Counted from the first letter of the stretch, positions 30,517-50,663 are shown. The stretch is DNA of 64,000 bases from Limisphaerales bacterium (GCA_025362675.1 JANYFN010000226.1:3835-67834), one strand, 5' to 3'. Translations and numbers: made by a program. The notes: generated from the sequence alone by a model not told the origin.

Positions 30517-30526
30517 ACACTGCATT

Positions 30527-34117: not shown

Positions 34118-34135
34118 ACATTGACCCAAACTACT

Positions 34136-35134: not shown

Positions 35135-35340
35135 GCGGCCTCGCTCATTTTTTTCGAAGAGAGAAAAACCAGAAAGGTTTTGAATCCAATGTTTACAGCC
35201 AGAAAAACAGTTTTATGACGATTACTTTTTCTAATTTTATTCCAGCTTTGATATTAGCGTCAAAGAAATCGACCGGTTTTTTGTTCAATAACGGACAAAA
35301 AATGGTGAGCTCTATTCCGGGCAAATTCTAAATTAGCTTT

Positions 35341-36450
35341 GTGAAAAGAGAAGACATCAACGAGGCGCGTTCGGCAAAAATTTTCGTAGCTGGCTTGAGC
35401 TACAAGACCGCACCGGTGGCGGCCCGGGAAAAATTGGCAGTATCACGCACCCGATTGCAATGCTGCGGCTGCCGTTTAAAACTCCACGGGAATCTTTCCG
35501 AAGTCGTGCTGCTTTCGACCTGCAATCGCGTGGAGATCTATGGCGTATCGCCTTGGATCCACGGCCGCGTTCACCGGCTGTTTCAGGAACTGACTAACAG
35601 CGATTTTGATTTCACCCCCCATCTCTATGTCAAGGAAGGCGCGGCGGCTGCCCAACATCTGTTTTCCGTGGCCAGCGGCTTGGACTCGATGGTGGTGGGC
35701 GAAACGGAAATCACCGGCCAGGTCAAAAATGCATATCAAGCCGCCAAAGATGCCGGGCTGGTCGGTAAACAGATGAATCGTCTATTTCAAACGGCATTCT
35801 CAGTGGTGAAAGCCATCCGCACCAAAACGGCGATCGGCCGGGGCGCAACCTCGGTGGGCAGCGTAGCGGTGGAACTGGCGGAGAAAATTTTTGACAAAAC
35901 CCTCGCGGAAAAAACCGTGATGATTTTGGGCGCGGGCAAAATGGGGGAAGCCTGCGTGAAACATCTCGCCAAACGCGGGGCGAAAACCGTGCTCGTCGCC
36001 AATCGTTCGGCAGAAAGGGCGGAAAAACTCGCAGCCGAGTTTGGGGGCCGCGCAGTGCGGATCGAACACGCAGCTGCCGCCATGACCGAGGCCGACATAT
36101 TAGTTACGTCAACCGGCAGCCCAGATATTGTTTTATGGCGAGAAGATATCGCCAAGATTTTGCCAGCGCGCCGGAACCGGCCGCTGATTCTCGTGGACAT
36201 CGCCGTTCCCCGCGACATAGATCCGGCGGTCGCCGAGCTGCCCAACGTTTTTCTCTATGACATCGATGACCTAGAAGCCGTCGTTCGCGAGAACACCAAA
36301 AACCGCGTCCAGGAAATGACGGTTTGCGAGCAGATCATGGCCAAATATACGGCGGAACTGATGCCTAAACTAGAGTCGGCTTATGTAAACCACACCCCCG
36401 CGACGGTTGGAACGGCCACGGGATGGGTGTTTGGTGGAGTGCCGGTATAA
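35341..36450 (+). CDS. hemA: Glutamyl-tRNA reductase
   Basis: 369 aa with a GTG start. Carries GLSYKTAPVAAREKLAV, the catalytic-Cys motif LLSTCNRVEIYG, GETEITGQVK and the NADPH motif ILGAGKMGE. Confidence 0.9.
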   Translation: MKREDINEARSAKIFVAGLSYKTAPVAAREKLAVSRTRLQCCGCRLKLHGNLSEVVLLSTCNRVEIYGVSPWIHGRVHRLFQELTNSDFDFTPHLYVKEGAAAAQHLFSVASGLDSMVVGETEITGQVKNAYQAAKDAGLVGKQMNRLFQTAFSVVKAIRTKTAIGRGATSVGSVAVELAEKIFDKTLAEKTVMILGAGKMGEACVKHLAKRGAKTVLVANRSAERAEKLAAEFGGRAVRIEHAAAAMTEADILVTSTGSPDIVLWREDIAKILPARRNRPLILVDIAVPRDIDPAVAELPNVFLYDIDDLEAVVRENTKNRVQEMTVCEQIMAKYTAELMPKLESAYVNHTPATVGTATGWVFGGVPV

Positions 36451-36647
36451 AACAAAAAATATATGGATTTTTCAAAGAATTTTAACAGTGGGCACCGCGC
36501 GGCACTTCTGCCGATGAGCGGGTCTGCTGTTGGAACCACGGCTAACCTAGCCATGTTTAACCAATACGCGGCGTTGATATTCGGCCGCGTGCAGAACCAA
36601 GCCCCAATAACCACATAAAATACGCGCGTAACTAACTATTAACTAAT

Positions 36648-37406
36648 ATGAAAACCACCTACTTACTAACTCTAACCCTCGTCACCGGCTCGTTGCTGAC
36701 AGTGTCGGCCACGGCCGGAATTCTAGGCATCAATAACGCGGGCAGTCCACATGATTTTTCTTCGCAATCATGGAATGTGCAACCGTCAGATCCTGCCACA
36801 GTCTGTAGCGCCTGCCATATTCCTCACCATGCCGATAGCAGCGTCATCCCACTTTGGGCGCATGCCACCACCTCATCGTCGTTCACGATGTATAACAACG
36901 CCAATGTAACCGGCCTCGGCGATAATGCCACTTCGTTGCAAGCAGCGATTGATTCGCAACCAGCCGGCCCTTCGAAAGCTTGCTTGAGTTGCCATGACGG
37001 CACAGTAGCCATCAATACTTACGGCGGCACCACCCACGGCGTTGGGACCACCGTGACTAACAGTGCTAACTTAGGCACCGATTTAACGCATTCACATCCT
37101 ATTTCTTTGACCTATAGTCCGGCGATTGTCGGGCCGGGAGTCAATCAAGATAAATGGTTGTTTGACCCGAACACGACGCCGGTTTTGACCCCGGTCAGCG
37201 GCACGTTCATCCCGGGAAATGATATGACTATCAACGGTTTTCTACTGAACGGGCGGAACCGCTTGGAATGCACCTCGTGCCATGACGTGCATAACCAAGA
37301 AGGAACGCCATTCGATGTCGTGAACAATCCTAAACTGGTCAAAATTGTCGGCGTTGACGCCAACGGCAAGGGTAGTTTGCTCTGTCGCAGTTGCCATAAC
37401 AAGTAA
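36648..37406 (+). CDS. Secreted tetraheme cytochrome c
   Basis: 252 aa with a signal peptide. Has 4 CXXCH sites (CSACH, CLSCH, CTSCH, CRSCH). It is a paralogue of the N-terminal four-heme module of the 45826..47646 product. Confidence 0.85.
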   Translation: MKTTYLLTLTLVTGSLLTVSATAGILGINNAGSPHDFSSQSWNVQPSDPATVCSACHIPHHADSSVIPLWAHATTSSSFTMYNNANVTGLGDNATSLQAAIDSQPAGPSKACLSCHDGTVAINTYGGTTHGVGTTVTNSANLGTDLTHSHPISLTYSPAIVGPGVNQDKWLFDPNTTPVLTPVSGTFIPGNDMTINGFLLNGRNRLECTSCHDVHNQEGTPFDVVNNPKLVKIVGVDANGKGSLLCRSCHNK

Positions 37407-37535
37407 CTCCCTTAAACCGATGTGCCGGGAGATCATGACTGATTCGCCCGCACCTGATTAAAGCCAGCCGAGTAGGGGCAACAGGTATATAAGAGAGCAT
37501 GTCGGTGTAGGGAAAACAACTAACTAACTATTTAA

Positions 37536-40211
37536 ATGAAAACTATTGATCACTTCACTTTGCGCCGTGCCTTCGCCATACTAACCACTGGCTTGGCCCT
37601 CGGTGGCATTGGCGGGACTAATTCCCGCGCCGCGGATATGTATCGCATGCAGGAACTCCATGAAGGCGGGATTCCAGCAGTGACAACCATCAACATGATT
37701 GATTCGCCCACAAACACGACGTTCTCCTGGTATGGTATGCGCGGTTGGAGCACAGTCTTGGCTTCTACAAATCTCACGGATTGGTTCCCCTTCGCTTCCA
37801 CGATGGCAACCGAATATGATTGGTCCGTGAAGGCTGGCAAACCTGACGGGTCCTACTTTTTCAAGTTGGCCCAGACGAACTATTACGCGGGATCAGCCGA
37901 GTGCAGCAGTTGCCACGGCGATAAATATATTACCTGGACTCACACTGAGCACGGGAACGCTTTGAGCGTGCTGAGTTCGATTGGAATGGACAATAACTCC
38001 AGTTGCCTGCCCTGCCACACCGTTGGGTTCGGCCAGCCAACCGGCTACACTAACTCGGCGCTTACTCCGCACCTAGCAAATGTAGGCTGCGAAAATTGTC
38101 ACGGAGCAGCAGGCTGGCATAAGAACAGCGACCACGCGCTGATTAGACCAGCGGTAAGTATCGACCCTGCTATTTGTGGCAGTTGCCATCAAGACAGCCA
38201 TCACCCAACCTTCGAGGAATACTCGGAATCCTTGCATTCACAGGTGAATGATGACGTCAAATATGGTTTCAACAGCGGTGTCTATTACACAAATACAATC
38301 ACGCTTGGCGGGACTAATCTATATGGCTATTACGTGACGACCAACGCCAATGGAACCCTCAAAACAAATGCTACGACAGGTATTGTTCATAGCTTCAATG
38401 GACTGCAAACTTTGCCGAACTTGCAATTTACTTATGACTTGGGCCAAGATCGGGCGGCGGCTTGCGGTGTTTGCCATTCAGGCGCCACGCGCATGGCCAT
38501 GCTGAGTGACTACGCAGACCGCCTTAGTGGACATACTAATGCGCTCGTCATGGCCACCGGTAAAGATGCCGGCGCGTGGGGTCCAACCTGCGCCGTATGC
38601 CATGATCCGCATGCAAAATATAATGTCGCCCAACTGCGCAATCCAACGTGGTCATCAAACTTCTTCACGATGCCCACCACGACCGATAAGCGTAATATTC
38701 TGTCCACAAATTTTATGGGCGCAGTTTCGACCAGTGTTGTGTTCATGAACACGGCATTCGCAACTCTGTATAACCCGAACATCAATATCTGTGGTCAGTG
38801 CCATAACACGCGCGGCGCGCGCTGGGACGGGCGGGCCTACGGCTTAATCACCAATACGGTGGCTAGTGGACCAGTGACTAATGTTGTTTACGTAGATGTT
38901 TACACAAACACTACCATCACCCAAGTGTTCACGAACAGCTCAGGCATCCCGTATCTGACTAACACCTATAATTACAGCTATATTGTCGGACGCATCGCAA
39001 CTAATTCTGTCACCACACCGACCAACCTAGTCGTCTCGGCTGGACTGACGGCTAATGTGACTGGCTATAGTCGTGCGCCCCATAATTCAGTCCAATACAA
39101 CATCCTTATCGGCATTCTACAAACGGACTACCTGAATTCCACCAACGGCAAGTCGGTCTATACAAACGGCGTGTTGACCAACGGAGTCGGAATCTACGCG
39201 ACGCATAGCGGGATCGCCCCTAGATCAATCTTCAATACAAACCAATGCGCGACCTGCCACGTGCCCAATTATGCAGTGAATCCCACCACCACAGTGCTTG
39301 GCCACACATTTGATCTGGATACAATGGGTTGTGCTCTGGGAGGCTGCCATACGTCTGGTTTCCCAGACTATCTTGGGACTCAAGCCAAGACGACGAACAA
39401 CATCGCCCGCGTAGTTGACTTACTCAATCGCTGGGCCACTAACAATGCCCCGGCTATCCTGACGACAAATTACAATAAATATAGACAGAACAGTTGGGAA
39501 TTCACGGCCCCGGGCGTGCTTGCGAGCATTACCAATGCCGGTCCGTCGGCGGCGGATCAGTTGAAGTTGCCCGATGTGATCCGTCAAGCGCGCTTCAACA
39601 CCTACATGGTTCGCAATGACGGCAGCCTGGGCGTGCATAATCCGACCTTCATCCCGTTGCTCTTGAGGGATGCCGAATTCAAGGTGCTCAGCCAGTTCAC
39701 CGTTGCCAAATTCACGGCGAATTCGCCTGATATTGCGTTGAATGGCGTCGTTACCTTCACGAACATGAATTCCGGGGTTTCTGATAGCACCTGGGACTTC
39801 GGTGACGGCGTGATTACCAACACCACCGCCCGGACGTTGACCCACAAATACACCGCGGTTGGACTCTTCTCCGTGACACTGACAGCGACCGATGTCAACG
39901 GGACCGAAACCTTGACGCGTAATAACTATGTAAGCGTGTTTGATCTGGTAGTGCCGAGCTTCACGTTCACTGCGGGCGGGCTCACACATCCCGTCACGGT
40001 CAACTTCACGAACACCAGTATCAATGCTGAATATGGCAAATGGTCGCTCTATGATAGCAGCGGCTTCATGGCCACATCCAATCGGTTGTTAGGTGTCTCA
40101 GGCATGACTGCTTCTTATAACTACACTAATGCCGGGACTTATAAAGTGTTGCTGCAAGCCAGCAATCCCGGTGGCAGTGCCAGCATCACTAATACGATCA
40201 CTATCAACTGA
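37536..40211 (+). CDS. Secreted multiheme cytochrome c (c554-like N-terminal heme block) with two C-terminal PKD domains
   Basis: 891 aa with a signal peptide. Has 8 CXXCH plus one CX4CH (CALGGCH). The c554-like pattern is CSSCHGDKYITW..H...CLPCHTVGFG...VGCENCHGAAGWH. The PKD-like units begin around WDFGDGV...HKYTAVGLFSVTLTATD. Confidence 0.85.
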   Translation: MKTIDHFTLRRAFAILTTGLALGGIGGTNSRAADMYRMQELHEGGIPAVTTINMIDSPTNTTFSWYGMRGWSTVLASTNLTDWFPFASTMATEYDWSVKAGKPDGSYFFKLAQTNYYAGSAECSSCHGDKYITWTHTEHGNALSVLSSIGMDNNSSCLPCHTVGFGQPTGYTNSALTPHLANVGCENCHGAAGWHKNSDHALIRPAVSIDPAICGSCHQDSHHPTFEEYSESLHSQVNDDVKYGFNSGVYYTNTITLGGTNLYGYYVTTNANGTLKTNATTGIVHSFNGLQTLPNLQFTYDLGQDRAAACGVCHSGATRMAMLSDYADRLSGHTNALVMATGKDAGAWGPTCAVCHDPHAKYNVAQLRNPTWSSNFFTMPTTTDKRNILSTNFMGAVSTSVVFMNTAFATLYNPNINICGQCHNTRGARWDGRAYGLITNTVASGPVTNVVYVDVYTNTTITQVFTNSSGIPYLTNTYNYSYIVGRIATNSVTTPTNLVVSAGLTANVTGYSRAPHNSVQYNILIGILQTDYLNSTNGKSVYTNGVLTNGVGIYATHSGIAPRSIFNTNQCATCHVPNYAVNPTTTVLGHTFDLDTMGCALGGCHTSGFPDYLGTQAKTTNNIARVVDLLNRWATNNAPAILTTNYNKYRQNSWEFTAPGVLASITNAGPSAADQLKLPDVIRQARFNTYMVRNDGSLGVHNPTFIPLLLRDAEFKVLSQFTVAKFTANSPDIALNGVVTFTNMNSGVSDSTWDFGDGVITNTTARTLTHKYTAVGLFSVTLTATDVNGTETLTRNNYVSVFDLVVPSFTFTAGGLTHPVTVNFTNTSINAEYGKWSLYDSSGFMATSNRLLGVSGMTASYNYTNAGTYKVLLQASNPGGSASITNTITIN

Positions 40212-40238
40212 AACTAACCAGACAAGTTTGATGTCACA

Positions 40239-40280
40239 CAGGCTTTGGTCGAAGATCCGACCAAAGCCTGTCCTTTTTTA
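40239..40280 (+). terminator. Rho-independent terminator candidate
   Basis: A perfect 13-bp stem (caggctttggtcg / cgaccaaagcctg) with a 6-nt loop, followed by tcctttttt. It begins 28 nt after the stop of the PKD cytochrome. Confidence 0.7.
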
Positions 40281-40422
40281 AAAAGTATGCCGGGCTTGCC
40301 TGGCTGCGCCTGAGCGCTCCTCGGAATCCACAATTAACCGACGGTTAGCTTGTGACAATTTACGGTGAGTCTCCCGCCTAGTTTTGAATTATTTAATGGG
40401 AAGACATCAACAAATTATGACT

Positions 40423-41508
40423 ATGAAAATAAATATCAAACCACGGTTTATAAAGGTCGGCGGCTTTTGCCTGTTGTTGACGCTATTTAATGGCTGCAGC
40501 ACCACGACCACCAGCAAGTCAACCCAGCCCTATACTTTTTTTCCCTCCGCTCCGGATCAACCGCGCATTCAATACCTGACCGCTTTTGCGTCGGACGCCG
40601 ATATGGGCAAAAGCACCGGATTCGCCGATTTTATCACGGGCGAACAAAAGTCAGCCGACCCTTTGGTGAAGCCGTATGGCATTGCGCTGCACGAAGGAAA
40701 TATTTTCGTTTGCGACACGGTGTCCGGCATGGTCGAGGTGTTTGACTTGAAAAAAAATCACGCAAGCTACTTTTCGCCGCAGGGTGAAGGAAAGTTGCGT
40801 TTGCCCATTAACATTAGCATTGATACGGATGGAACGCGTTACGTTGCTGACACCGGGCGTCAGCAGGTCATGATCTATCGCGGTGACGGAACTTTTATTG
40901 AGGCGCTCGGCAAGAAGGATGAAATGAAGCCCGTGGATGTGGGTATCACGACTGACCGTCTCTACATCGCTGATTTGAAAAATCATTGTGTAAAAGTTTT
41001 CAGCAAGGCTGATCACAAGTTGCTGTTCACGATTCCAGCTGATGGTCAAAACAGTCAAGCTCGCCTGCTCTCTCCCACCAACCTGACCATCGATAAAAAC
41101 GGCGGACGTTTGCTGGTTTCCGATACCGGCGGCAACGTCGTGCAAGTCTATGATCTTGATGGAAAATATTTACGGACCATTGGTCGCGCGGGTGTGGCCC
41201 CTGGATTGTTTGCCCGTCCGAAAGGCGTGGCGGTGGATCGTCAGGGGCTCGCTTATGTCGTGGATGCGGCAACGCAAGTAGTGCAACTCTTCGATACGGA
41301 GGGCCGATTACTCTTATTCTTCGGTCAAGCTGGTGCCAGCACGCGCGGGGAAGTTCTGCTGCCGGCGGCGGTGAAAGTGGATTATGACCACGTTGGTTAT
41401 TTCCAAAAATTCGTCGCACCCGGCCATCAAATCGAATACCTCATCCTAGTCACCTGTCAGTTCGGCGGTCAGAAAGTCAGTGTGTATGGTTTTTTGAAAC
41501 AACAATAA
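40423..41508 (+). CDS. NHL-repeat six-bladed beta-propeller lipoprotein
   Basis: The ORF opens at TTG 40384. The ATG at 40423 gives MKINIKPRFIKVGGFCLLLTLFNGC (lipobox). Repeated NHL units are present (PKGVAVDRQGLAYVVDAATQVVQLFDTEGRLL and others). Confidence 0.8.
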   Translation: MKINIKPRFIKVGGFCLLLTLFNGCSTTTTSKSTQPYTFFPSAPDQPRIQYLTAFASDADMGKSTGFADFITGEQKSADPLVKPYGIALHEGNIFVCDTVSGMVEVFDLKKNHASYFSPQGEGKLRLPINISIDTDGTRYVADTGRQQVMIYRGDGTFIEALGKKDEMKPVDVGITTDRLYIADLKNHCVKVFSKADHKLLFTIPADGQNSQARLLSPTNLTIDKNGGRLLVSDTGGNVVQVYDLDGKYLRTIGRAGVAPGLFARPKGVAVDRQGLAYVVDAATQVVQLFDTEGRLLLFFGQAGASTRGEVLLPAAVKVDYDHVGYFQKFVAPGHQIEYLILVTCQFGGQKVSVYGFLKQQ

Positions 41509-41535
41509 GTGCTGGCTGCTTAATCGCCCGTTCTG

Positions 41536-42747
41536 ATGAACCTGCCTTTTGCCAAAACCAATTCGCCCCGCCAACGGGGACGGATCTTTGGCGTATTCAT
41601 CGGGCTTTTGTGCGGCCTTTTCATCTTGGCGGGCTGTCGCACGGAGACCAAGCAGAAGTGGCTGAATGTGTTCTTCGATGGCGTGCCGGATCCGAACGCG
41701 ACGAATGTTCTGGGCGCGGCGAAATCAAATGTGCTGATCACCAACTTGGTCAGCGAGGCGCGCGTGCTGCAACCATCCCTGAGCGCGATGAATATTCATT
41801 CGCCTTATGCGAAGCGGGATTGCACCGCGTGCCATGAATCTCAGTTCTCGCAAAAGATGCAAGGCAAGCCGGGCGAAGTTTGTTTCAACTGCCACCTTGA
41901 ACTGAAAAAAAATTTGGAGGCGAGCAAGGTGAAACATCCGCCGGTTCAGGACGGCGACTGTAAAAGCTGCCACAATCCGCATCGCTCACCGAATGCGAAA
42001 TTACTCAACATGGTGGGGAATTCCCTTTGCCTCACCTGCCATGATAATCCGCTCGCAGCGGGCAAGATCAAGCATCAGGCAGTCGAAGCCGGTTCATGTC
42101 TGGATTGTCACGCACCGCACGCCACGAATTTCAAAGGGCTTTTGAAAAAATCCCTCAAAGAAACGTGCGCCGAGTGTCACGTTGATCTGGTGGCGAAGAA
42201 AAAATTTGTGCATCAGCCGGTGGGAGACGGCGATTGTATGGAATGCCACACACCGCACGCGGGTAAATTCAACAAGCTCCTCAAAAAACCGGTGAAAGAA
42301 ACGTGTGCGGAATGTCACGACGAAATCCCGGCGAAGAATGCCAAATCAATTCATCAGCCCGTGGGCGATGGCGACTGTCTCGCATGCCACGATCCGCATG
42401 CCACGGCGAACAAGGCGCTCATTAAAAAAACTGCGCCAGCGTTATGCTGGGATTGCCACGATAATTTTTTGGAGAAGGCGAAGTTCAAACACGATGTCGT
42501 GGATGATTGCATGGGTTGCCATAAGGCACATCAATCGGCGGAGACAAGTTTGTTGGCGAAAAATATTTTGAAGTTGTGCGGCGATTGCCACGACGACAAA
42601 GATTTGAAAGCTGTGAAAGCTCACGCCGGTAATGAAGCCAAGTCCTGCGTGGTCTGTCACGATCCGCACGTGGGCAAAGATAAATTTCTCCTAAAAGGTT
42701 CTGCCGCCACCCAACTGATTGGCAAGGAAGGAGCGGTCGGAAAATGA
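41536..42747 (+). CDS. 13-heme c7/c3-type repeat cytochrome c lipoprotein (periplasmic wire-like)
   Basis: 403 aa with lipobox LFILAGC. Has 13 CXXCH sites arranged as repeated H-x-PV-x-DGDC-x-x-CH-x-PH / C-x-x-CHD units. Confidence 0.85.
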   Translation: MNLPFAKTNSPRQRGRIFGVFIGLLCGLFILAGCRTETKQKWLNVFFDGVPDPNATNVLGAAKSNVLITNLVSEARVLQPSLSAMNIHSPYAKRDCTACHESQFSQKMQGKPGEVCFNCHLELKKNLEASKVKHPPVQDGDCKSCHNPHRSPNAKLLNMVGNSLCLTCHDNPLAAGKIKHQAVEAGSCLDCHAPHATNFKGLLKKSLKETCAECHVDLVAKKKFVHQPVGDGDCMECHTPHAGKFNKLLKKPVKETCAECHDEIPAKNAKSIHQPVGDGDCLACHDPHATANKALIKKTAPALCWDCHDNFLEKAKFKHDVVDDCMGCHKAHQSAETSLLAKNILKLCGDCHDDKDLKAVKAHAGNEAKSCVVCHDPHVGKDKFLLKGSAATQLIGKEGAVGK

Positions 42748-44765
42748 AGTTTACCAAGCTCCATCGTCACCCGATTTTTACGAGTCTGCTGTTGGCCGGT
42801 ATCGCACAACGTATGGCACCATCCGCCCGCGCCGAGGAGCCGCGTTGGTTCCGATTGAACGGAATTCCAGAGGCGAGCGTGGGCATGGAAGTAGAAAGCT
42901 CGACGGAGACCACTCGCATAGGCGGCAGCGAATCCAGTTATGAACATATGTTCATCACCCCGCTGGTTGGCCTACAAACTTCTGGCTCGATTTATCATCC
43001 GAACCTATTGACGTTTGACCTCAACGGCGAACTCGGCTGGGGTTGGGATTCGATGACTTCTAAAAATACGGGTGCGACGCAAACCCGGAACGAAAGCGAC
43101 CAGTTGAACCGCTACTTTGCGCAGATCAATTTGCTGCAAGCCAAGCCTTACAACGCTTCGTTTTTTGCTTCGCAGGATCATACCTTCCGCGACTACGGAA
43201 CGTTTGACACATTCACCGTGGACAGCGAGCGCTATGGTGGCCGCATCAATTGGAACAAGGAAAATTTAAGTTTGAACACCGACTTTGGTTATCGCGATGA
43301 AAAATCCACCGGCCTCAACGACTCGTCGGAAATCGCCGAAACGTATTTCAACTTTGTCGGATTGAACCGCCGAAAAAACGGTCAGACCGCCGCAACCTTT
43401 CGGTTCGATCAGTTCGATAATATTTTTAATTCTGGCAGCAAGACGGGCACCATGAATGAGTCAATCGGGCTTTCCGATTCCGAGACCTTCGGCCGTCGCA
43501 ATCAAATCACCTCAGCCACGGGAATAAGTTTCGGCCACTCAGAATACAGCGGGCAGGCATCCGATACCATCAACGCCAATGAAAATGTATCAATCCGCCA
43601 TCGTCCGCATCTAGATAGTTACCTGATGCTGGATTTTGCCCACAACCATCTGCATCCCGAAACCCAATCCCGCTTGCAGGGCACCTATGGCTTGCGCCAT
43701 CAACTATTTGACAGCCTAACCTCCAACTTAGACGCCCATGGCAGCCATCAGGAAAACACCAGCGTGCTTAGTTCCTCCACGAGCGATCGCTATGGTCTGG
43801 GACTATATGAAAGTTATACCAAGCGGCTCCGTTCTTGGGGCAGGCTGACCGCCGGCATGGGAATCGTGGCGGACCATGAGGAAGATAATTCTACCGGCAC
43901 CATTTTCACGAGCATTGATGAATCACATGTGCTCTATGTGCCAACCAGTCCGAGCTATCGCCCGGTTTATTTGAATCGTCCGCGCGTGGTTCCCGGAACG
44001 ATTCAAGTCAACGTAGCCGGTGATGTGCTCATTGAATCAACCGATTATCAAACAGTCACGTCGGGCGAGTTGACGGAAATTCGCCTCATCGTTCCCGTCA
44101 GCAGCCATCTGCAATCGCTCTTACTAAGTAGTGATAACTTGATCGTGTTAGTGACTTATCAAAGCGCTTCGTTGAACAATGCCTCGTTTGAATCGCTGAA
44201 CGGCACGGCGCAAGTCCGTTTGGATCTGCCTGGCGGAGTTGGCATCTATAGCCGCGCGAATTGGATGGAAAATAATGCGCCCGCTGAAATTCTGGTGCAA
44301 ACGCTGACCGATCTCGTCGGCGGGGTTGATTATAGCTGGCATTGGATGCGGGCCGGAGCGGAGTATGAAAATTATGATTCTAATTTCACCCAGTATACAG
44401 CTTACCGCTTTTACCAGAATTTTGATTTTCGAATCGATTCAAAATCAACTTTGAATTTCAACTTCAATGAAACGTTTTACAATTACCCCGATGGTCGCGA
44501 TCAGAATCAGTATCAATTTCTCACCCGTTATAGCTCACAGTTATGGGCAACATTTAGTTGGTATATCGAAGGTGGCCTAATGATTCAGGAGGTTTTGGGA
44601 ACGGATCAACTACAGGGTTCCGCCCGCACCGGCTTTAATTGGCGGCGCGGCAAGCTGACCGTGCGCGCCGGTTACGAATACAACGCGCAAACCTCTTCAT
44701 CCGGTTTGTGGACGGAAGAACGTGAAAAGCACCGTTTTTTCGGTTATATGAAAAGGACGTTTTAA
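42744..44765 (+). CDS. Large outer-membrane beta-barrel protein (porin-like sheath candidate)
   Basis: 673 aa. The ATG overlaps the upstream stop (ATGA). Has a signal peptide, alternating-hydrophobic strands rich in Y/G/N/S/T, no Cys, and a C-terminal ...FGYMKRTF ending in Phe (BAM beta-signal-like). Confidence 0.7.
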   Translation: MKFTKLHRHPIFTSLLLAGIAQRMAPSARAEEPRWFRLNGIPEASVGMEVESSTETTRIGGSESSYEHMFITPLVGLQTSGSIYHPNLLTFDLNGELGWGWDSMTSKNTGATQTRNESDQLNRYFAQINLLQAKPYNASFFASQDHTFRDYGTFDTFTVDSERYGGRINWNKENLSLNTDFGYRDEKSTGLNDSSEIAETYFNFVGLNRRKNGQTAATFRFDQFDNIFNSGSKTGTMNESIGLSDSETFGRRNQITSATGISFGHSEYSGQASDTINANENVSIRHRPHLDSYLMLDFAHNHLHPETQSRLQGTYGLRHQLFDSLTSNLDAHGSHQENTSVLSSSTSDRYGLGLYESYTKRLRSWGRLTAGMGIVADHEEDNSTGTIFTSIDESHVLYVPTSPSYRPVYLNRPRVVPGTIQVNVAGDVLIESTDYQTVTSGELTEIRLIVPVSSHLQSLLLSSDNLIVLVTYQSASLNNASFESLNGTAQVRLDLPGGVGIYSRANWMENNAPAEILVQTLTDLVGGVDYSWHWMRAGAEYENYDSNFTQYTAYRFYQNFDFRIDSKSTLNFNFNETFYNYPDGRDQNQYQFLTRYSSQLWATFSWYIEGGLMIQEVLGTDQLQGSARTGFNWRRGKLTVRAGYEYNAQTSSSGLWTEEREKHRFFGYMKRTF

Positions 44766-44767
44766 TC

Positions 44768-45829
44768 ATGGTCCCGAAATTACAACTGCCGATTCCAGTG
44801 AACCCGCCCCGAGCGAAGGGCGCGCACCCGTGGCTCCGGGTATTGATGTTTGTCGGTTTGCTTTGGTGGCGAGCACCGTTAAATATGTTGGCCAGCGAGA
44901 CTAATACGTTGGCGTGGCCACCGCCACCGGCAAATCCCTATGTCGTTTATGTCCGCACTATCTCCGCTCCAAAAGACATCGGTGTGCGCGCCTCGTTCTT
45001 TACCCGACTCGGCAATACGCTCACCGGGGTTGGAAAGGACGCCAAGAAAATGGAGCGTCCGTTTGGTCTCACGCTGGACGATGCCGATAACCTGGTCATC
45101 ACCGATACGAGTGCAAACTCCGTTGATTATCTCGACTTGGCCGGAAAAAAATGGCGACACTTCACTTCTTCCGGTGGCAAAGCATTCTTATCGCCCGTGG
45201 CCGCCGTGCACCATGGAAAAACTTTTTTTGTGGCTGACTCGGCAGCGGGTAAAGTTATCGCCTTTGACGAGAAAGGAAAAGAGCAGTTCGTCATCACTAA
45301 TGAATTAGCGCGCCCTTCAGGGCTGGCGATACTAGGTGGTAAGCTGCTGATAGCTGACTCTCAACTCCACCAAGTCATTCTCTACGACCTAACTGGACAA
45401 TTCATCTCCAAGTTCGGCCAACGCGGCAAAGGCGAGGGCGAATTTAATTTTCCGACCCACGTTTCCGTTGATACCCACAGCCAAATCTATGTCACGGATT
45501 CCTTGAATCATCGCATCCAGGTCTTCGCTGGCGATGGAAAATATCTCCGCAGTTTCGGCAGCGTCGGTGATGGTCCCGGCCATTTCAGCCGTCCAAAAGG
45601 CGTCGCGGTGGATCGTTCGGGCCACGTTTATGTCGTCGATGCGGTGTTCAACAACGTGCAGATTTTCGATGACCACGGACGACTGTTGCTCGACTTTAGC
45701 GAACCTGGTTCGGAAGCGGGCAAACTCTGTCTGCCCAACGCTATCGCCATCAATTCCAAAAATGAAATTTTCGTAGCGGACGCTTACAATCATCGTATCC
45801 AGGAGTTTCGCTACACCGGCAGAGAATGA
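44768..45829 (+). CDS. NHL-repeat beta-propeller protein
   Basis: 353 aa, starting 2 nt after the barrel gene stop. NHL units include FNFPTHVSVDTHSQIYVTDSLNHRIQVF, FSRPKGVAVDRSGHVYVVDAVFNNVQIF and LCLPNAIAINSKNEIFVADAYNHRIQEF. Confidence 0.85.
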   Translation: MVPKLQLPIPVNPPRAKGAHPWLRVLMFVGLLWWRAPLNMLASETNTLAWPPPPANPYVVYVRTISAPKDIGVRASFFTRLGNTLTGVGKDAKKMERPFGLTLDDADNLVITDTSANSVDYLDLAGKKWRHFTSSGGKAFLSPVAAVHHGKTFFVADSAAGKVIAFDEKGKEQFVITNELARPSGLAILGGKLLIADSQLHQVILYDLTGQFISKFGQRGKGEGEFNFPTHVSVDTHSQIYVTDSLNHRIQVFAGDGKYLRSFGSVGDGPGHFSRPKGVAVDRSGHVYVVDAVFNNVQIFDDHGRLLLDFSEPGSEAGKLCLPNAIAINSKNEIFVADAYNHRIQEFRYTGRE

Positions 45830-47646
45830 AAACTTTTCGACATGATGAGCCGCGATTCAGCCAGCCAGCGACGGCCGGTAAGCCAGGGCAATGGTATTTC
45901 TCGGCCAGAGATCGTGTTTTGAAAAATGTCGTAACCCGACTGATTACATTTATTACCCTAGCTGTTTTTTGGGAGGCTCAGACTGCTTTCGGACAAAATC
46001 CGGACAGTATTGTTTTTTCAAAACATAACCTTTCCCTGAGCAGTCCTGGCACGGTTCATTCGACAACGGAATCAGACATTTGTATTTTTTGCCACACGCC
46101 ACATCAGGCCTCGAATGACGGACCGCTCTGGAATCATAAGATGTCTTCCGAGACTTATACTCCTTATACTAGCCCAACTCTCAAAGCTACGGTCGGACAA
46201 CCTACTGGCTCTTCTAGACTTTGTCTAAGCTGTCACGATGGCACGGTGGCGCTCGGCATGGTTGCCAGTAGAAGCAGTGGCATTGCCATGAATTCGACCA
46301 CCATGCCGGCCGGACCTAGCAACCTAGGCACTGATTTGTCCGCCGATCACCCAGTTTCATTCGAATATAAAGCGGAGGCAGGATTTCTCCGCGATCTGAG
46401 TATGTTGCCGCAGGAGATTCATATGGACCGCGCGGGCCAGATGCAATGCACTGCCTGTCATGATCCGCATAACAATAAGTTCGGAAATTTTCTGGTTTTG
46501 GATAATACCGATTCCGCCCTGTGTTTGAAGTGCCATATTATGCCCGATTGGAGCGGCTCGGCGCATCAGATTTCAACGAAAGCTTTGCCTACTTTTTTGA
46601 AAAGTTTAATGACTGCGCAGAGCGGTTCGACCAAAGATAAAGCTACTGCGAAAACGGTTTCGGTCGCCGCAGCGGGTTGCGAGAGTTGTCACGTCTCCCA
46701 TTCGGCAGGGACTAAAAAGGAATTGATGCGCTTCTCTACTCTGGAGAAAAATTGCCGCTCCTGTCACGACGCCGAAGGACCAGGGCAGAACGTCAGCGCC
46801 GAGTTCAGCAAGATGAGTGCGCACCCGATCTCGCTTGATTCCGAGTCACACACGGCGACTGAGGACCCGATCAATCCCCCGACGCGTCATGTGACGTGCG
46901 CTGACTGTCACAACCCCCACGCTTCCAGCAGCACCCCCGGGAGTCAGGGCAAAATTGCCAGTGCATTGAATGGCGTCACCGGTGTCAGTTCCGGCGGTAG
47001 TAAAATGCGCAACATCACTCACGAATATGAGCTTTGTTATCGCTGCCACGGCGACAGCAATCAGCGCGGACCGGCGCGCGTGCCGCGTCAATTTGTGGAA
47101 ACCAACACGCGCCGCGAGTTCAATCCCGGCAATGTTTCTTTCCATCCCGTGGAAACCACCGGCAAGAACTCCAGCAACGCCAGCTTGCTGTTGCCATTGA
47201 CCACGGCGAGCACGATTGGATGCACCGATTGCCATAACAACGATCAAGGCCCGGCTAATGGCGGCACCGGCACCAAGGGCCCGCACGGCTCCGCCTTTGA
47301 ACCATTGATCGAACGCCCGTTGCTGCTTACCGACGGCACTGCTTATAATCCCGCAAACTTTGCATTGTGTTACAAATGTCATAGTAGCGCGGTGGTGGAT
47401 AGTAATCTCGCCAATAGTTGGGCGTTTCACCGGAAACACATTGAAGATTACCGCGCTGCTTGCACCACCTGCCATGATTCCCACGCCGCGAATCAACCGC
47501 ATTTGATCAATTTTAACACGGAATATGTTAAACCCATGACCGGCGTTTTGAACTATACTTCCACCGGCATCAACCATGGGACTTGCACGCTGACCTGCCA
47601 CGACGGCACCGGACAAAACAAAACGCACAATGCCCTGAGTTACTAA
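45826..47646 (+). CDS. 12-site multiheme cytochrome c
   Basis: 606 aa. The ATG overlaps the upstream stop by 4 nt. Has an N-terminal hydrophobic segment and 11 CXXCH plus one CX3CH (CTLTCH). Confidence 0.85.
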   Translation: MKTFRHDEPRFSQPATAGKPGQWYFSARDRVLKNVVTRLITFITLAVFWEAQTAFGQNPDSIVFSKHNLSLSSPGTVHSTTESDICIFCHTPHQASNDGPLWNHKMSSETYTPYTSPTLKATVGQPTGSSRLCLSCHDGTVALGMVASRSSGIAMNSTTMPAGPSNLGTDLSADHPVSFEYKAEAGFLRDLSMLPQEIHMDRAGQMQCTACHDPHNNKFGNFLVLDNTDSALCLKCHIMPDWSGSAHQISTKALPTFLKSLMTAQSGSTKDKATAKTVSVAAAGCESCHVSHSAGTKKELMRFSTLEKNCRSCHDAEGPGQNVSAEFSKMSAHPISLDSESHTATEDPINPPTRHVTCADCHNPHASSSTPGSQGKIASALNGVTGVSSGGSKMRNITHEYELCYRCHGDSNQRGPARVPRQFVETNTRREFNPGNVSFHPVETTGKNSSNASLLLPLTTASTIGCTDCHNNDQGPANGGTGTKGPHGSAFEPLIERPLLLTDGTAYNPANFALCYKCHSSAVVDSNLANSWAFHRKHIEDYRAACTTCHDSHAANQPHLINFNTEYVKPMTGVLNYTSTGINHGTCTLTCHDGTGQNKTHNALSY

Positions 47647-47696
47647 AAATATTTTAAGCTGATAAGTCTAACCATTAACTAATCCCTACTAATTAT

Positions 47697-48488
47697 ATGA
47701 ACACCAAACACCTCCTTATCATCGGTTGCCTGACTATGCCGACTCATTGGGCTTGTGCCGATGACGCCAACCCGGCGGCCAATACTGTGCCCGCTCAAGC
47801 AACCCAAGCCGAAACCATAAGTGGTAAAGTCGCCGAAACCATGAGCACGGCAGGCTATACTTATGTCTTGGTGGATACCGGCAGCAAAAAAGTCTGGGCG
47901 GCGGCGGTTGAGTTTCCCATAAAAGTGGGCGATTCCGTTTCGTTTGTGGCGACCGATCCTATGGAAAATTATCATAGCAAATCATTGAACCGCGATTTTG
48001 ATCAGGTCTATTTCACGGGCGGTATTGCTGTCGGCACTGAATCAGGCTCCCCGGCTCTGCCTAAGTTGCCACCGGGACATCCAGCACTACCCGGTAAGAC
48101 AGCTTCCACGCTTCCGCCGGGACATCCGTCAATCACGGGTGAAGTAGTTCCTAAAAAAGTAGAGCTCACCGGTATCAAGAAGGCCGATGGTGGTAAGACC
48201 GTTCAGGAAATTTTCGCCGATCATTCCAAGCTGGTGGGTAAACCCGTCAGCGTGCGTGGCAAAGTTGTGAAATATAACGCCATGATCCTCGGTAAAAACT
48301 GGCTGCATATCCAGGACGGTTCGGGCACTGTGGAAAATCGCGACAATGACCTAACGGTCACCACCAGCACCCCCGCTAAATTGGGCGACACTGTGCTCGT
48401 GACCGGCAGCGTGTCGCTGAACAAAGACTTCGGAGCGAATTACAAATACGCTGTCATCCTTGATGACGCGAAGGTGGTCGTCGAATGA
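47697..48488 (+). CDS. Secreted protein with two OB-like beta-barrel halves joined by a linker with two LPPGHP repeats
   Basis: 263 aa with a signal peptide. Shows an internal duplication (SGKVAETM..YTYVLVD..IKVGDSVSF versus RGKVVKYN..WLHIQDGSG..KLGDTVLVTG). The linker reads LPPGHPALPGKTASTLPPGHPSITG. The fold assignment is tentative. Confidence 0.6.
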   Translation: MNTKHLLIIGCLTMPTHWACADDANPAANTVPAQATQAETISGKVAETMSTAGYTYVLVDTGSKKVWAAAVEFPIKVGDSVSFVATDPMENYHSKSLNRDFDQVYFTGGIAVGTESGSPALPKLPPGHPALPGKTASTLPPGHPSITGEVVPKKVELTGIKKADGGKTVQEIFADHSKLVGKPVSVRGKVVKYNAMILGKNWLHIQDGSGTVENRDNDLTVTTSTPAKLGDTVLVTGSVSLNKDFGANYKYAVILDDAKVVVE

Positions 48489-49855: not shown

Positions 49856-49860
49856 GGCCG

Positions 49861-50322: not shown

Positions 50323-50663
50323 ATCTCAGACAAATTGGTTCTCTGAATTTTTTTGATTTGTTTGGTGTCGGCGAAAATCTGCGGTTCGTTCTCATTCGCT
50401 TTGGTCACCCAGACGAGAGTAGCCCGCACCGCGCTGCCTGCTTCTCGCCCAGGTAGGCGGTAATACACCCATCGGTCAGTCTTTCGAGATTGCACCAGCC
50501 CGGCTTGAAAAAGAATAGATAGGTGTTTAGAGACCGTGGAGGGAGCCATGCCGAACAGTTCGGTGATCTGACAGACGCATAGTTCCCCGCCGCGCAAGGC
50601 CATCAAAATCCGCACGCGGGTCGCATCCGCCAGCGATTTTGTGATACTCATGAACTCACGCAT
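50298..50663 (-). CDS. arsR: ArsR/SmtB-family metalloregulator
   Basis: 121 aa (an alternative ATG lies at 50651). Has the HTH LADATRVRILMAL with the metal-site motif ELCVCQI. It is the first gene of arsR-arsC-acr3. Confidence 0.85.
   Translation of the reverse strand: MREFMSITKSLADATRVRILMALRGGELCVCQITELFGMAPSTVSKHLSILFQAGLVQSRKTDRWVYYRLPGREAGSAVRATLVWVTKANENEPQIFADTKQIKKIQRTNLSEICKRQGKK

What the first reader, a model, noticed from the sequence alone, without database searches (positions are those of the whole stretch)
36648..48488. Eight-gene multiheme-cytochrome / NHL-propeller / large beta-barrel cluster: candidate trans-envelope electron conduit or cytochrome-wire assembly system
Seen in the sequence. 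There are four c-type cytochromes: a 4-heme secreted protein, a 9-site protein with two PKD domains, a 13-heme c7-repeat lipoprotein, and a 12-site protein. Together they carry 36 CXXCH sites plus one CX4CH and one CX3CH. They are interleaved with two NHL six-blade propellers (one a lipoprotein) and a Cys-free 673-aa protein. That protein has a signal peptide, strand-like periodicity and a C-terminal Phe, so it looks like an outer-membrane barrel. Genes 41536-47646 are translationally coupled: ATGA overlaps at 42744 and 45826, and a 2-nt gap at 44766. A strong terminator at 40239-40280 splits the cluster into two units. Established knowledge. Porin-cytochrome conduits (Mtr, Geobacter Pcc/Ext) combine a periplasmic multiheme protein, a barrel and a surface multiheme protein. 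As far as I recall, NHL-repeat genes also flank omcS in Geobacter sulfurreducens. Inference. The part list here (c554-like PKD cytochrome, c7-polymer lipoprotein, MtrB-sized barrel, two NHL propellers, LPPGHP protein) does not match Mtr or Pcc as I know them. It also sits in an apparently PVC-type genome, so it may be an undescribed extracellular electron-transfer module.
Basis: partly seen in the sequence, partly recalled or inferred. Interest (0 to 1): 0.85.

Follow-up and report, generated by a model that had tools for sequence, protein, structure and literature searches.

The report
OmcE-type cytochrome nanowire cluster, Verrucomicrobia
This eight-gene cluster is the Verrucomicrobial version of the Geobacter omcE "cytochrome nanowire" gene set, a known kind of machinery for moving respiratory electrons out of the cell, found here in a phylum where I found no report of it.

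Summary

This is a cytochrome-wire and electron-conduit cluster, but it is not an undescribed module.

- The 4-heme protein is a homologue of the Geobacter OmcE nanowire subunit (PDB 7TFS, E=1e-15). All four CXXCH and four distal His are conserved.
- The 12-site cytochrome starts with a complete OmcE-like tetraheme module.
- The 13-heme lipoprotein is MtrA-like.
- The Cys-free 673-aa protein models as a roughly 28-30-strand beta-barrel. It is homologous (hhalign 99.5%) to the barrel in a Geobacter sp. OmcE-like cluster.

The order OmcE-like, NHL, MtrA-like, barrel, NHL, 11-heme recurs in most of 80 loci retrieved from more than 10 phyla. It matches the published "minimal omcE cluster".

Lineage-specific additions are the OcwA/c554-like PKD cytochrome and a two-domain OB-like protein.

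The genome is Verrucomicrobia subdivision 3, a phylum absent from the published OmcE survey. It is a new member of a known kind.

The most useful lead is that the 11/12-heme protein may be the filament's base.

The parts
36622..36647 (+). Leader of g1. It holds the palindrome ACGCGCGT (36622-36629), then AACTAACTA (36630-36638), just 5' of the ATG.
   Evidence: ACGCGCG is kept about 5-25 nt upstream of the g1 orthologue start in L082, L002, L003 and L004, although the flanks have diverged. The exact AACTAACTA occurs only before g1 and g2 in the window. Function not tested.
36648..37406 (+). g1: secreted tetraheme OmcE homologue, the presumed nanowire subunit (252 aa).
   Evidence: PDB 7TFS (G. 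sulfurreducens OmcE filament) E=1.2e-15 over residues 13-222. PDB 9YUQ (presumably the D. soudanensis OmcE bundle) E=1.1e-12. All four CXXCH plus His35, His60, His150 and His215 are invariant in an alignment with both solved OmcEs. 1622 homologues.
37536..40211 (+). g2: 9-site (8 CXXCH + CX4CH) surface cytochrome with a c554/UshA-like/OcwA-like heme domain and two C-terminal PKD domains. It is a lineage-specific addition.
   Evidence: Pfam Cytochrome_C554 4.5e-14 and PKD/PKD_4. NCBIfam UshA_like_PCGU 7.9e-26, below its cut-off. PDB cytochrome c554 5e-9 and 6I5B 9e-8. An equivalent gene between the OmcE-like gene and the NHL gene occurs only in the nearest Verrucomicrobial loci L002-L004 and L082.
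40238..40281 (+). Intrinsic-terminator-like hairpin after g2.
   Evidence: 14-pair stem, 8 GC pairs, T-rich tail. It is the strongest such site in 35-50 kb.
40384..41508 (+). g3: NHL six-blade beta-propeller lipoprotein ('N3' class, always next to the OmcE-like gene). The true start is probably ATG 40423.
   Evidence: Pfam NHL 6.5e-18 and DUF5128. The lipobox Cys is conserved in 90% of 68 homologues. E4->N3 adjacency in 65 gene pairs. Start inferred from L082.
41536..42747 (+). g4: 13-heme MtrA/DmsE-like lipoprotein, the presumed periplasmic-side wire that enters the barrel.
   Evidence: 13 CXXCH and an LAGC lipobox. TIGR03508 DmsE family 1.2e-45, 156 bits against a cut-off of 192. PDB 6R2Q chain A (333 aa; I take it to be MtrA of the Mtr complex, the entry's name line is uninformative) E=9.4e-15. 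P->B adjacency in 50 pairs, median gap 5 nt. ATGA overlap with g5.
42744..44765 (+). g5: large outer-membrane beta-barrel, roughly 28-30 strands, belonging to a family that has no Pfam or NCBIfam model.
   Evidence: AF2 mean pLDDT 83.7, all-beta with about 30 long antiparallel strands. Foldseek hits are only large OM barrels (Cir, LptD, FimD, MtrB), TM 0.3-0.36, identity 10% or less. No Pfam, NCBIfam or PDB sequence hit. The family HMM finds the barrel in 66 of 80 OmcE-like loci. hhalign to the Geobacter sp. L070 barrel: 99.5%, E=3e-22. 1341 clusters at 50% identity.
44768..45829 (+). g6: NHL six-blade beta-propeller with no lipobox ('N6' class, always paired with the 11-heme cytochrome).
   Evidence: Pfam NHL 8.2e-28 and DUF5128 2.4e-21. 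N6->C11 adjacency in 49 of 51 cases with a median 4-nt overlap. ATGA overlap with g7 here.
45826..47646 (+). g7: 12-site cytochrome (11 CXXCH + CX3CH). It is an N-terminal complete OmcE-like tetraheme module (about residues 60-240) fused to an 8-site C-terminal domain. It is the candidate surface anchor or base of the filament.
   Evidence: PDB 7TFS E=8.4e-26 for residues 50-189. BLASTP to OmcE: 35% identity over 203 aa. Four CXXCH plus His67, His93, His175 and His215 align with OmcE's ligands and are invariant in 34 homologues. 38% identity over the full length to the Geobacter sp. L070 11-heme protein, E=1e-123. More than 7800 homologues.
47697..48488 (+). g8: exported two-domain protein (N-terminal domain of about 70 aa and an OB-like C-terminal domain). 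Function unknown. It is a loosely associated accessory.
   Evidence: No Pfam, NCBIfam or PDB match. It sits directly downstream of g7 in L082. Homologues lie beside the cluster in 7 loci of Bacteroidota, Chlorobiota, Opitutae and an unclassified MAG, often on the opposite strand. The LPPGHP linker is not conserved.

Best explanation
This is the Verrucomicrobial (subdivision 3) member of the omcE-type extracellular-cytochrome-nanowire gene cluster.

Shown:
- g1 is an OmcE homologue with all eight heme ligands.
- g7 carries a complete OmcE-like module.
- g4 is MtrA/DmsE-like.
- g5 is a large beta-barrel homologous to the barrel of OmcE-like clusters in Geobacter sp. and many other phyla.
- g3 and g6 are NHL propellers. 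Each is fixed next to one OmcE-module gene.
- The six-gene order is conserved across phyla.

Inferred mechanism:
1. Electrons from the periplasm enter the lipoprotein g4, which is sheathed by the barrel g5 in the way MtrA is sheathed by MtrB.
2. They pass to g7 at the cell surface.
3. The OmcE-like module of g7 makes the same head-to-tail contact as a filament subunit, including His-to-neighbour-heme ligation. In this way it anchors or nucleates a polymer of g1.
4. The two propellers act as dedicated periplasmic or outer-membrane assembly partners, g3 for g1 and g6 for g7. They would keep the OmcE modules unpolymerised until export.
5. g2, co-transcribed with g1 and followed by a terminator, is a lineage-specific OcwA/c554-like surface reductase held out on PKD domains.
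6. g8 is an accessory of unknown role.

The likely acceptors are insoluble or humic substrates in anoxic freshwater or peat-type habitats. The direction of electron flow is not determined.
For: Homology to OmcE:
- g1 to OmcE 7TFS 1.2e-15 and to 9YUQ 1.1e-12.
- Invariant 4 CXXCH + 4 His across g1, both solved OmcEs and the g7 module.
- g7 N-terminus to 7TFS 8.4e-26. G. sulfurreducens OmcE matches the N-terminal modules of 11-heme proteins as well as it matches 4-heme proteins.

Conduit parts:
- g4 to 6R2Q chain A (MtrA) 9.4e-15 and DmsE family 1e-45.
- g5 AF2 model pLDDT 83.7, all-beta, with only big OM barrels as fold matches.

Synteny:
- A barrel HMM built from Verrucomicrobial sequences alone hits ORFs 2-5 kb from the OmcE-like gene in 44 loci. 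After iteration it hits 66 of 80.
- hhalign to the Geobacter sp. barrel: 99.5%.
- The components E, N3, B, N6 and C occur together in 48 of 80 loci from Verrucomicrobiota, Bacteroidota, Ignavibacteria/Chlorobiota, Calditrichota, Proteobacteria, Desulfobacterota, Nitrospirae and others.
- Adjacent pairs: E->N3 65, N3->P 52, P->B 50, N6->C 49 with a 4-nt overlap.
- Synteny is identical in the close relative L082.

Literature:
- Petersen et al. describe exactly this minimal omcE cluster and propose the barrel as a secretion or anchor porin.
- OmcE and OmcS filaments use a His from the adjacent subunit (PMC9473688).
- Shen et al. 2025, as cited in PMC13194489, assign folding, secretion and morphology roles to the analogous osc genes.
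Against: - No experiment exists on this organism. Polymerisation of g1 is inferred only from about 31% identity to OmcE and from gene context.
- OmcE-like tetrahemes are a very large family (1622 hits), and the authors of the OmcE survey themselves restrict 'nanowire-capable' members by context.
- The AF2 model of g7 failed (pLDDT 36.6), so the anchor role has no structural support here.
- Petersen et al. state that no tip- or initiator-like candidate is apparent in omcE operons.
- In 12 loci the MtrA-like gene is missing between N3 and the barrel, and the Acidobacterial EET1 core is only porin-NHL-cytochrome. So which cytochrome occupies the barrel is unresolved.
- The barrel could instead be a secretion channel for folded subunits.
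- The physiological importance of cytochrome filaments is itself disputed (PMC11077965, listed).
Confidence: 0.7

Rival explanations
1. The cluster encodes a porin-cytochrome conduit without a filament. g4, g5 and g7 would form an Mtr-like trans-outer-membrane complex. g1 would be a monomeric periplasmic or surface tetraheme shuttle, and g2 the terminal reductase.
For: g4 is MtrA-like. The barrel fold resembles MtrB or LptD only generically. Fiorito et al. 2026 interpret the related Acidobacterial porin-NHL-cytochrome triad as a porin-scaffold-cytochrome conduit. OmcE-like tetrahemes are very numerous.
Against: g1 keeps every heme ligand of the two solved OmcE filaments, so the His that ligates the neighbouring subunit's heme must be among them. 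It also sits in exactly the gene context used to define nanowire-capable OmcEs. The universal pairing of each OmcE-module gene with its own propeller has no obvious role in a simple conduit.
Confidence: 0.2
2. The barrel g5 is a usher-like secretion and anchoring pore for folded OmcE-type subunits, not a sheath for g4. g4 would be only a periplasmic relay. The propellers would be chaperones that deliver subunits, as in a chaperone-usher pathway.
For: About 28-30 strands, larger than the 26-strand MtrB (strand count as cited by Fiorito et al.). FimD usher chains are among the fold matches. Petersen et al. favour a porin 'secretion or anchor' model, and Shen et al. call OscEFG channel-like. 12 loci have N3 directly before the barrel with no MtrA-like gene between them.
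Against: P->B adjacency with near-zero gaps in 50 loci, the ATGA overlap here, and MtrA homology of g4 fit the Mtr arrangement. There is no plug, POTRA or usher domain match by sequence.
Confidence: 0.3
3. The system works inwards. It would take up electrons from reduced humics, Fe(II), minerals or partner cells rather than discharge respiratory electrons.
For: Related cytochrome and NHL-propeller clusters in Desulfovibrio ferrophilus IS5 are induced under electron-donor limitation and linked to electron uptake (PMC5815863). Multiheme wires are reversible in principle.
Against: Nothing in the window indicates direction. The characterised relatives (OmcE in Geobacter and Desulfuromonas) come from metal- or electrode-reducing bacteria.
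Confidence: 0.15

Closest known systems
omcE gene cluster of Desulfuromonadia (G. sulfurreducens OmcE filament, PDB 7TFS; D. soudanensis OmcE bundle; Petersen et al. 2025, bioRxiv 10.1101/2025.10.22.684050)
   Same: It has the same six parts: an OmcE-type tetraheme, two NHL propellers, a large barrel and two multiheme cytochromes. They are in the same order as in Geobacter sp. locus L070. All parts are detectably homologous: g1 31% to OmcE, g7 38% to the L070 11-heme protein, barrel hhalign 99.5%.
   Different: - The phylum is Verrucomicrobiota, which is not among the five phyla listed by Petersen et al..
- The barrel is 673 aa against about 913-965 aa in Desulfuromonadia; it lacks their N-terminal extension of about 285 aa.
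- The MtrA-like protein has 13 hemes and is a lipoprotein, against 5 hemes in L070.
- An extra PKD cytochrome (g2) and g8 are present.
- No glycosylation gene block was seen in the flanks that were examined.
- L070 itself is not the GSU0618 orthologue; its 4-heme protein is 31% identical to G. sulfurreducens OmcE.
osc (omcS-companion) cluster of G. sulfurreducens (Shen et al. 2025, cited via PMC13194489)
   Same: The logic is the same: a filament cytochrome encoded with a beta-propeller-like protein and channel-like outer-membrane proteins, which are proposed to fold, secrete and shape the nanowire.
   Different: There is no OmcS-like hexaheme and no prolyl-isomerase (OscH-type) gene here. Homology of g5 to OscE/F/G could not be tested because no sequences were available.
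MtrCAB / Geobacter Pcc (OmaB-OmbB-OmcB) porin-cytochrome conduits
   Same: An MtrA-like multiheme protein is encoded immediately before a large barrel, and a surface multiheme cytochrome is encoded after it.
   Different: - The barrel has no MtrB/PioB (PF11854) signal and 10% or less identity to MtrB.
- There is no MtrC/OmcA-type cytochrome (TIGR03507 38 bits against a cut-off of 209).
- NHL propellers and an OmcE subunit are present, and these are absent from Mtr and Pcc.
Acidobacteriota 'EET1' porin-NHL-13-heme OmcE-like cluster (Fiorito et al. 2026, bioRxiv 10.64898/2026.05.27.727921)
   Same: It is the same triad as g5-g6-g7: a barrel, an NHL propeller, and a large extracellular cytochrome whose model matches OmcE 7TFS.
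   Different: It was described as a three-gene core, without a separate tetraheme OmcE subunit, a second propeller or an MtrA-like gene. The Verrucomicrobial clusters in that paper (EET3, EET4) are a different system: a 9-heme protein, an 8-heme MtrA-like protein and an MtrB-like or PEP-CTERM porin. Sequences were not compared directly.
Desulfovibrio ferrophilus IS5 outer-membrane cytochrome clusters DFE_448-451 / DFE_461-465 (Deng et al. 2018, PMC5815863)
   Same: [quoted passage not shown]
   Different: No barrel or OmcE homologue is reported in the passages I read. Those clusters are linked to electron uptake. Sequences were not compared.

Membership tests
omcE-type cytochrome nanowire cluster | A tetraheme subunit homologous to OmcE, with four CXXCH and the four distal His that ligate the hemes | tested here: met
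   7TFS E=1.2e-15 and 9YUQ E=1.1e-12. C53/C56/H57, C112/C115/H116 and C208/C211/H212 are invariant together with H35, H60, H150 and H215. The fourth CXXCH is present in all full-length sequences.
omcE-type cytochrome nanowire cluster | A large outer-membrane beta-barrel gene in the cluster, homologous to that of Desulfuromonadia clusters | tested here: met
   AF2 all-beta model, pLDDT 83.7. The only fold matches are OM barrels. HMM hit to the Geobacter sp. L070 barrel 1.5e-36. hhalign 99.5%.
omcE-type cytochrome nanowire cluster | Two beta-propeller (NHL) proteins, described as lipoproteins | tested here: met
   g3 and g6 carry NHL/DUF5128 domains. A lipobox is present in g3 only. The g6 class mostly lacks one across phyla, so the 'lipoprotein' part is half met.
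omcE-type cytochrome nanowire cluster | Two further multiheme cytochromes | tested here: met
   g4 has 13 hemes and g7 has 11+1. Both classes are conserved across loci. g7 is 38% identical to the L070 11-heme protein.
omcE-type cytochrome nanowire cluster | The subunit polymerises into an extracellular filament with cross-subunit His-heme ligation | not testable with these tools
   This needs cryo-EM or biochemistry. No multimer or heme-aware prediction was available.
osc (OmcS companion) cluster | An OmcS-like hexaheme filament subunit and a prolyl-isomerase chaperone (OscH) | tested here: not met
   None of the PDB sequence searches with the four cytochromes returned an OmcS chain. No PPIase domain is present in any of the eight proteins.
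Mtr/Pcc porin-cytochrome conduit | An MtrB/PioB-family barrel (PF11854) | tested here: not met
   g5 has no Pfam or NCBIfam hit at E<=0.1. Foldseek to MtrB 6r2q_B gives only E=5e-6, TM 0.34, 8% identity, no better than TonB receptors or LptD.
Mtr/Pcc porin-cytochrome conduit | An MtrA/DmsE-family periplasmic multiheme cytochrome | tested here: inconclusive
   g4 scores 156 bits on TIGR03508, below the cut-off of 192.2. It matches 6R2Q chain A at 9.4e-15. It has 13 hemes rather than 10 and is a lipoprotein.
Mtr/Pcc porin-cytochrome conduit | An MtrC/OmcA-type surface decaheme cytochrome | tested here: not met
   TIGR03507 scores 38 bits against a cut-off of 209 for g4 and gives no hit for g7 or g2. 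The Mtrc-MtrF_II-IV domain hit to g2 (36 bits) barely exceeds its cut-off of 30 and covers only a short heme motif stretch.
Verrucomicrobial EET3/EET4 and the He et al. 2017 porin-MHC clusters | A nonaheme extracellular MHC, an octaheme MtrA-like MHC and an MtrB-like or PEP-CTERM-type porin, without NHL or OmcE genes | tested here: not met
   The published descriptions differ from this gene set. Only g2 shares the UshA-like/OcwA-like heme domain with their nonaheme protein.

The most novel reading that the evidence does not exclude
The universally co-encoded 11/12-heme cytochrome (g7 class) is the missing base, or initiator, of OmcE-type nanowires. Its N-terminal module is a full OmcE unit that seeds the polymer by the same His-to-heme handshake. 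Its 8-heme C-domain plugs the filament electrically into the barrel conduit. Each OmcE-module protein has its own NHL-propeller chaperone. If this is right, the six-gene module is a self-contained 'conduit plus wire' machine. It would be spread across at least ten phyla, including Verrucomicrobiota, Bacteroidota, Ignavibacteriota and Calditrichota. Cytochrome nanowires would then be a common feature of anoxic freshwater, peat and sediment communities rather than a speciality of Desulfuromonadia.
Probability: 0.3. Interest if true: 0.75.

Novelty: new member of a known kind. Interest (0 to 1): 0.5.

Why it matters
**Distribution.** OmcE nanowire clusters have been surveyed in five phyla. Among the best 80, the full six-gene module appears in Verrucomicrobiota, Bacteroidota, Ignavibacteria/Chlorobiota, Calditrichota, Nitrospirae and others. 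This points to extracellular electron transfer capacity in abundant, mostly uncultured heterotrophs of humic lakes, peat and sediments, where such respiration may compete with methanogenesis.

**Mechanism.** How these filaments are started, anchored and wired to the cell is an open question. The conserved OmcE-like module at the N-terminus of the 11/12-heme cytochrome gives a concrete hypothesis. So does the strict pairing of each OmcE-module gene with its own propeller. Both can be tested in Geobacter or Desulfuromonas genetics.

**Annotation.** The barrel family has at least 1341 clusters at 50% identity and no Pfam or NCBIfam model. It would be a useful marker for this system.

Tried and rejected
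1. An AF2 model of g7 built from a 34-sequence alignment failed (pLDDT 36.6), so no fold search was run on it. Heme-dependent folds need AF3 with ligands.
2. g5 and g8 have no Pfam, NCBIfam or PDB sequence matches.
3. An Rfam scan of 35.0-49.5 kb at E<=1 found nothing. There is therefore no GEMM-type riboswitch of the kind I recall near some Geobacter cytochrome genes.
4. I considered whether this is the 'novel porin-MHC' of freshwater Verrucomicrobia (He et al. 2017) or EET3/EET4 of Fiorito et al. 2026. I rejected this because those are a 9-heme protein, an 8-heme MtrA-like protein and a porin, without OmcE or NHL genes.
5. The LPPGHP motif of g8 as a functional signature was rejected. The linker is not conserved in homologues.
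6. A search for a conserved His or Met in the propellers that could act as a surrogate heme ligand found only His201 of the g6 class (88%). This is suggestive at most.
7. The OmcE structure paper (PMC9357133) and the Shen et al. osc paper are not held in the library. Their content is cited second-hand.
8. The look-up of the window's own barrel gave only an unnamed Logan contig. Taxonomy therefore rests on the nearest loci.

Full report
**1. Observation**

My own motif count is as follows:

| Gene | Length | Heme sites |
|---|---|---|
| g1 | 252 aa | 4 CXXCH |
| g2 | 891 aa | 8 CXXCH + CX4CH at residue 599 |
| g4 | 403 aa | 13 CXXCH |
| g7 | 606 aa | 11 CXXCH + CX3CH at residue 587 |

That makes 36 + 1 + 1, as stated. 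These are the only multiheme ORFs in the 64-kb window.

g5 (673 aa) has no cysteine and ends in KRTF. The ATGA overlaps (g4/g5 at 42744, g6/g7 at 45826) and the 2-nt gap (g5/g6) can be read directly from the sequence. The hairpin at 40238-40271 has a 14-pair stem with 8 GC pairs and a T tail. It is the strongest terminator-like site in 35-50 kb. Pfam confirms NHL/DUF5128 propellers (g3, g6), a c554 domain with two PKD domains (g2), and paired-CXXCH/c7/c3 repeats (g4, g7).

**2. What the parts are**

g1 matches the solved G. sulfurreducens OmcE filament (PDB 7TFS, E=1.2e-15 over residues 13-222). It also matches a second multiheme chain, 9YUQ (E=1.1e-12), which is presumably the D. soudanensis OmcE bundle.

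I aligned g1, both solved OmcEs, the g7 N-terminus and nine homologues. The CXXCH sites and exactly four further histidines (His35, His60, His150, His215 in g1) are invariant. This is the pattern Petersen et al. report for OmcE homologues: four CXXCH plus four heme-ligating His.

g7 matches OmcE even better (E=8.4e-26, residues 50-189). Its residues 60-240 contain all four CXXCH and the four equivalent His (His67, His93, His175, His215). These are invariant in 34 homologues. An 8-site C-terminal domain follows.

g4's best solved relative is chain A of the Mtr complex (6R2Q_A, E=9.4e-15; I take this chain to be MtrA). It scores 156 bits on the DmsE-family model, below the cut-off, and has an LAGC lipobox.

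g5 has no Pfam, NCBIfam or PDB sequence match. AlphaFold2 on a 39-sequence alignment gives a confident all-beta model (pLDDT 83.7, pTM 0.63). It has about 30 long antiparallel strands and a small insert at residues 399-474. Foldseek returns only large outer-membrane barrels (Cir, LptD, FimD usher, MtrB) at TM 0.3-0.36 and 10% identity or less. I could not inspect coordinates, so 'about 28-30 strands' comes from the DSSP string, and barrel closure is not verified.

g2 combines a c554/UshA-like/OcwA-like heme domain with PKD domains. g8 matches nothing.

**3. Context elsewhere**

The barrel has 181 word-index homologues, all labelled hypothetical. The named ones are Verrucomicrobiota MAGs. An exhaustive profile search finds 1341 clusters at 50% identity with E<=1e-3, and 946 with E<=1e-10.

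I scanned GTDB species representatives with the OmcE alignment. The best 80 were fetched. The nearest are Verrucomicrobia subdivision 3 (80% identity).

ORFs in these loci were classified with phmmer and a barrel HMM. I use these labels:

| Label | Class |
|---|---|
| E4 | OmcE-like 4-heme protein |
| N3 | g3-type NHL propeller |
| P | g4-type MtrA-like cytochrome |
| B | barrel |
| N6 | g6-type NHL propeller |
| C11 | g7-type 11-heme cytochrome |

Two sub-modules emerge, [E4-N3-P-B] and [N6-C11]. They occur either in the order seen here or with N6-C11 first. The second order is found in Bacteroidota, Ignavibacteria and Calditrichota.

Counts among the 80 loci, many of them truncated contigs:
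- barrel in 66;
- N3 in 72;
- N6 in 56;
- C11 in 51;
- E, N3, B, N6 and C all present in 48.

Adjacent pairs:
- E4->N3: 65;
- N3->P: 52;
- P->B: 50, median gap 5 nt;
- N6->C11: 49 of 51, median overlap 4 nt.

An uncultured Geobacter sp. locus (L070) reads E4-N3-P5-B-N6-C11-P13. Its barrel aligns to the Verrucomicrobial profile at 99.5% probability (E=3e-22, 585 columns). Its 11-heme protein is 38% identical to g7 over the full length. A close relative of the window (L082; barrel 82% identical; 160-kb contig) has the same g1-g8 order between hemA and ResB/CcsB.

**4. Comparison with the literature**

Petersen et al. [quoted passage not shown] They treat the barrel as a putative secretion pore or anchor. 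They list five phyla, and Verrucomicrobiota is not among them.

[quoted passage not shown] 2025, via PMC13194489).

Fiorito et al. (bioRxiv 2026) describe an Acidobacterial 'porin-NHL-13-heme OmcE-like' triad, EET1. This corresponds to g5-g6-g7. Their two Verrucomicrobial clusters, EET3 and EET4, are a different system: a 9-heme protein, an 8-heme MtrA-like protein and a porin. The 'novel porin-MHC' of He et al. 2017 is described in the same terms (a porin plus an 8-heme periplasmic cytochrome), so I treat it as that different system too.

Deng et al. 2018 saw cytochrome and NHL-propeller clusters in D. ferrophilus.

The window's six core genes are therefore a distant member (22-38% identity) of a described kind. 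Its presence in Verrucomicrobia subdivision 3, and the breadth across FCB-group phyla seen, were not reported in any paper I could find.

**5. Mechanism**

*Shown:* the homologies, the conserved ligands, the lipoboxes, the conserved order and the translational coupling.

*Inferred:*
- g4, a lipoprotein MtrA-like wire, enters barrel g5.
- g7 sits at the surface. Through its OmcE-like module it offers the same interface as a filament subunit, so it anchors or seeds a g1 polymer. OmcE filaments use a His from the neighbouring subunit to complete one heme (PMC9473688).
- The propellers are dedicated partners of the two OmcE-module proteins. The N3 class is a lipoprotein (lipobox Cys conserved in 90%). 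The N6 class is mostly not a lipoprotein and has a conserved His201.
- g1 and g2 form a separate transcription unit that ends at the terminator. That would allow higher expression of the polymer subunit and of the lineage-specific PKD-tethered reductase.

*Weak points:*
- No heme-aware or multimer model could be run.
- The g7 AF2 model failed.
- In 12 loci no MtrA-like gene lies between N3 and the barrel, and EET1 has only the triad. The occupant of the barrel could therefore be the C-domain of the g7 class, or the barrel could be a usher-like export pore.
- The direction of electron flow is unknown.
- The physiological role of cytochrome filaments is contested (PMC11077965).

**6. Verdict**

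The cluster is real and correctly described. Its functional class was correctly guessed, but it is not an undescribed module. It is a new phylum-level member of the omcE-type nanowire and conduit cluster, with two lineage-specific additions (g2 and g8).

The most valuable by-products are:
- a barrel family that has no curated model;
- the wide phyletic spread of the complete module;
- the testable idea that the 11/12-heme OmcE-module cytochrome is the filament's base.

That last idea bears on a question the OmcE authors explicitly leave open. Interest is 0.5.

Noticed in passing
window 36622-36638 and 37518-37530; L082, L002, L003 and L004 upstream of the g1 orthologues: A palindromic ACGCGCG(T) lies about 5-25 nt upstream of the start codon of g1 and of its orthologues in four related loci, although the flanks have diverged. 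The exact AACTAACTA occurs three times in the window, all immediately before the ATGs of g1 and g2 (11 hits at one mismatch or fewer, against 2.7 expected). This may be a leader or regulatory element of the highly expressed unit.
   Followed up: partly
window 40384-40423: The mechanical ORF for g3 starts at TTG 40384. Comparison with L082 (361 aa, conserved upstream sequence) suggests the real start is ATG 40423 (MKINIKPRF...). That gives a normal lipoprotein signal peptide.
   Followed up: partly
window 30374-36450 and 48770-50663; L082 1-22022: In the window and in L082, PFOR, a dihydroorotate-dehydrogenase-like gene and hemA (glutamyl-tRNA reductase, heme synthesis) precede the cluster. In L082 the cluster is followed by two bPH_2 genes and then ResB/CcsB (system II cytochrome c biogenesis). 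In the window an arsenic-resistance set (ACR3-type carrier, LMW-phosphatase ArsC, ArsR) sits there instead, on the minus strand. The adjacency to heme and cytochrome biogenesis genes recalls the resB/ccsB neighbourhood reported for Desulfuromonadia omcE clusters.
   Followed up: partly
L003 (CAZHIM010000082.1): This contig carries a cluster 75% identical to the window's at g1, and it is clearly Verrucomicrobial in type. The record is titled 'uncultured Bifidobacteriaceae bacterium', so a binning or labelling error is likely.
   Followed up: no
window 47697-48488; L017, L020, L027, L030, L036, L057, L066: g8 belongs to an unannotated family with two conserved domains. One is an N-terminal domain of about 70 aa with a YTY(L/V) motif. 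The other is an OB-like C-terminal domain with GKNWxHIQDG and KDFGxGY motifs. Members recur beside OmcE-type clusters in Bacteroidota, Chlorobiota, Opitutae and an unclassified MAG, often on the opposite strand. Function is unknown.
   Followed up: partly
loci L006, L013, L017, L019, L020, L022, L026, L046, L052, L059, L072, L074: Many clusters, mainly in FCB-group phyla, carry extra OmcE-like paralogues, including 5-heme versions. These may correspond to the '5-heme OmcE-like' candidate nanowire family mentioned by Petersen et al. None is present in the window.
   Followed up: no
L002 1070-2782, L003 1787-3655, L008 944-6528: In other Verrucomicrobial relatives, 9-heme proteins of 570-622 aa (and 6-, 11- and 9-heme genes in L008) lie just upstream of the OmcE-like gene. 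They may be the nonaheme OcwA-like cytochromes of the EET3/EET4 type. In the window hemA occupies that position instead.
   Followed up: no
window 51926-53365 (- strand): A sigma-54-dependent response regulator (receiver, AAA+ and Fis HTH domains) lies 3.4 kb downstream of the cluster. No link to the cluster was tested.
   Followed up: no
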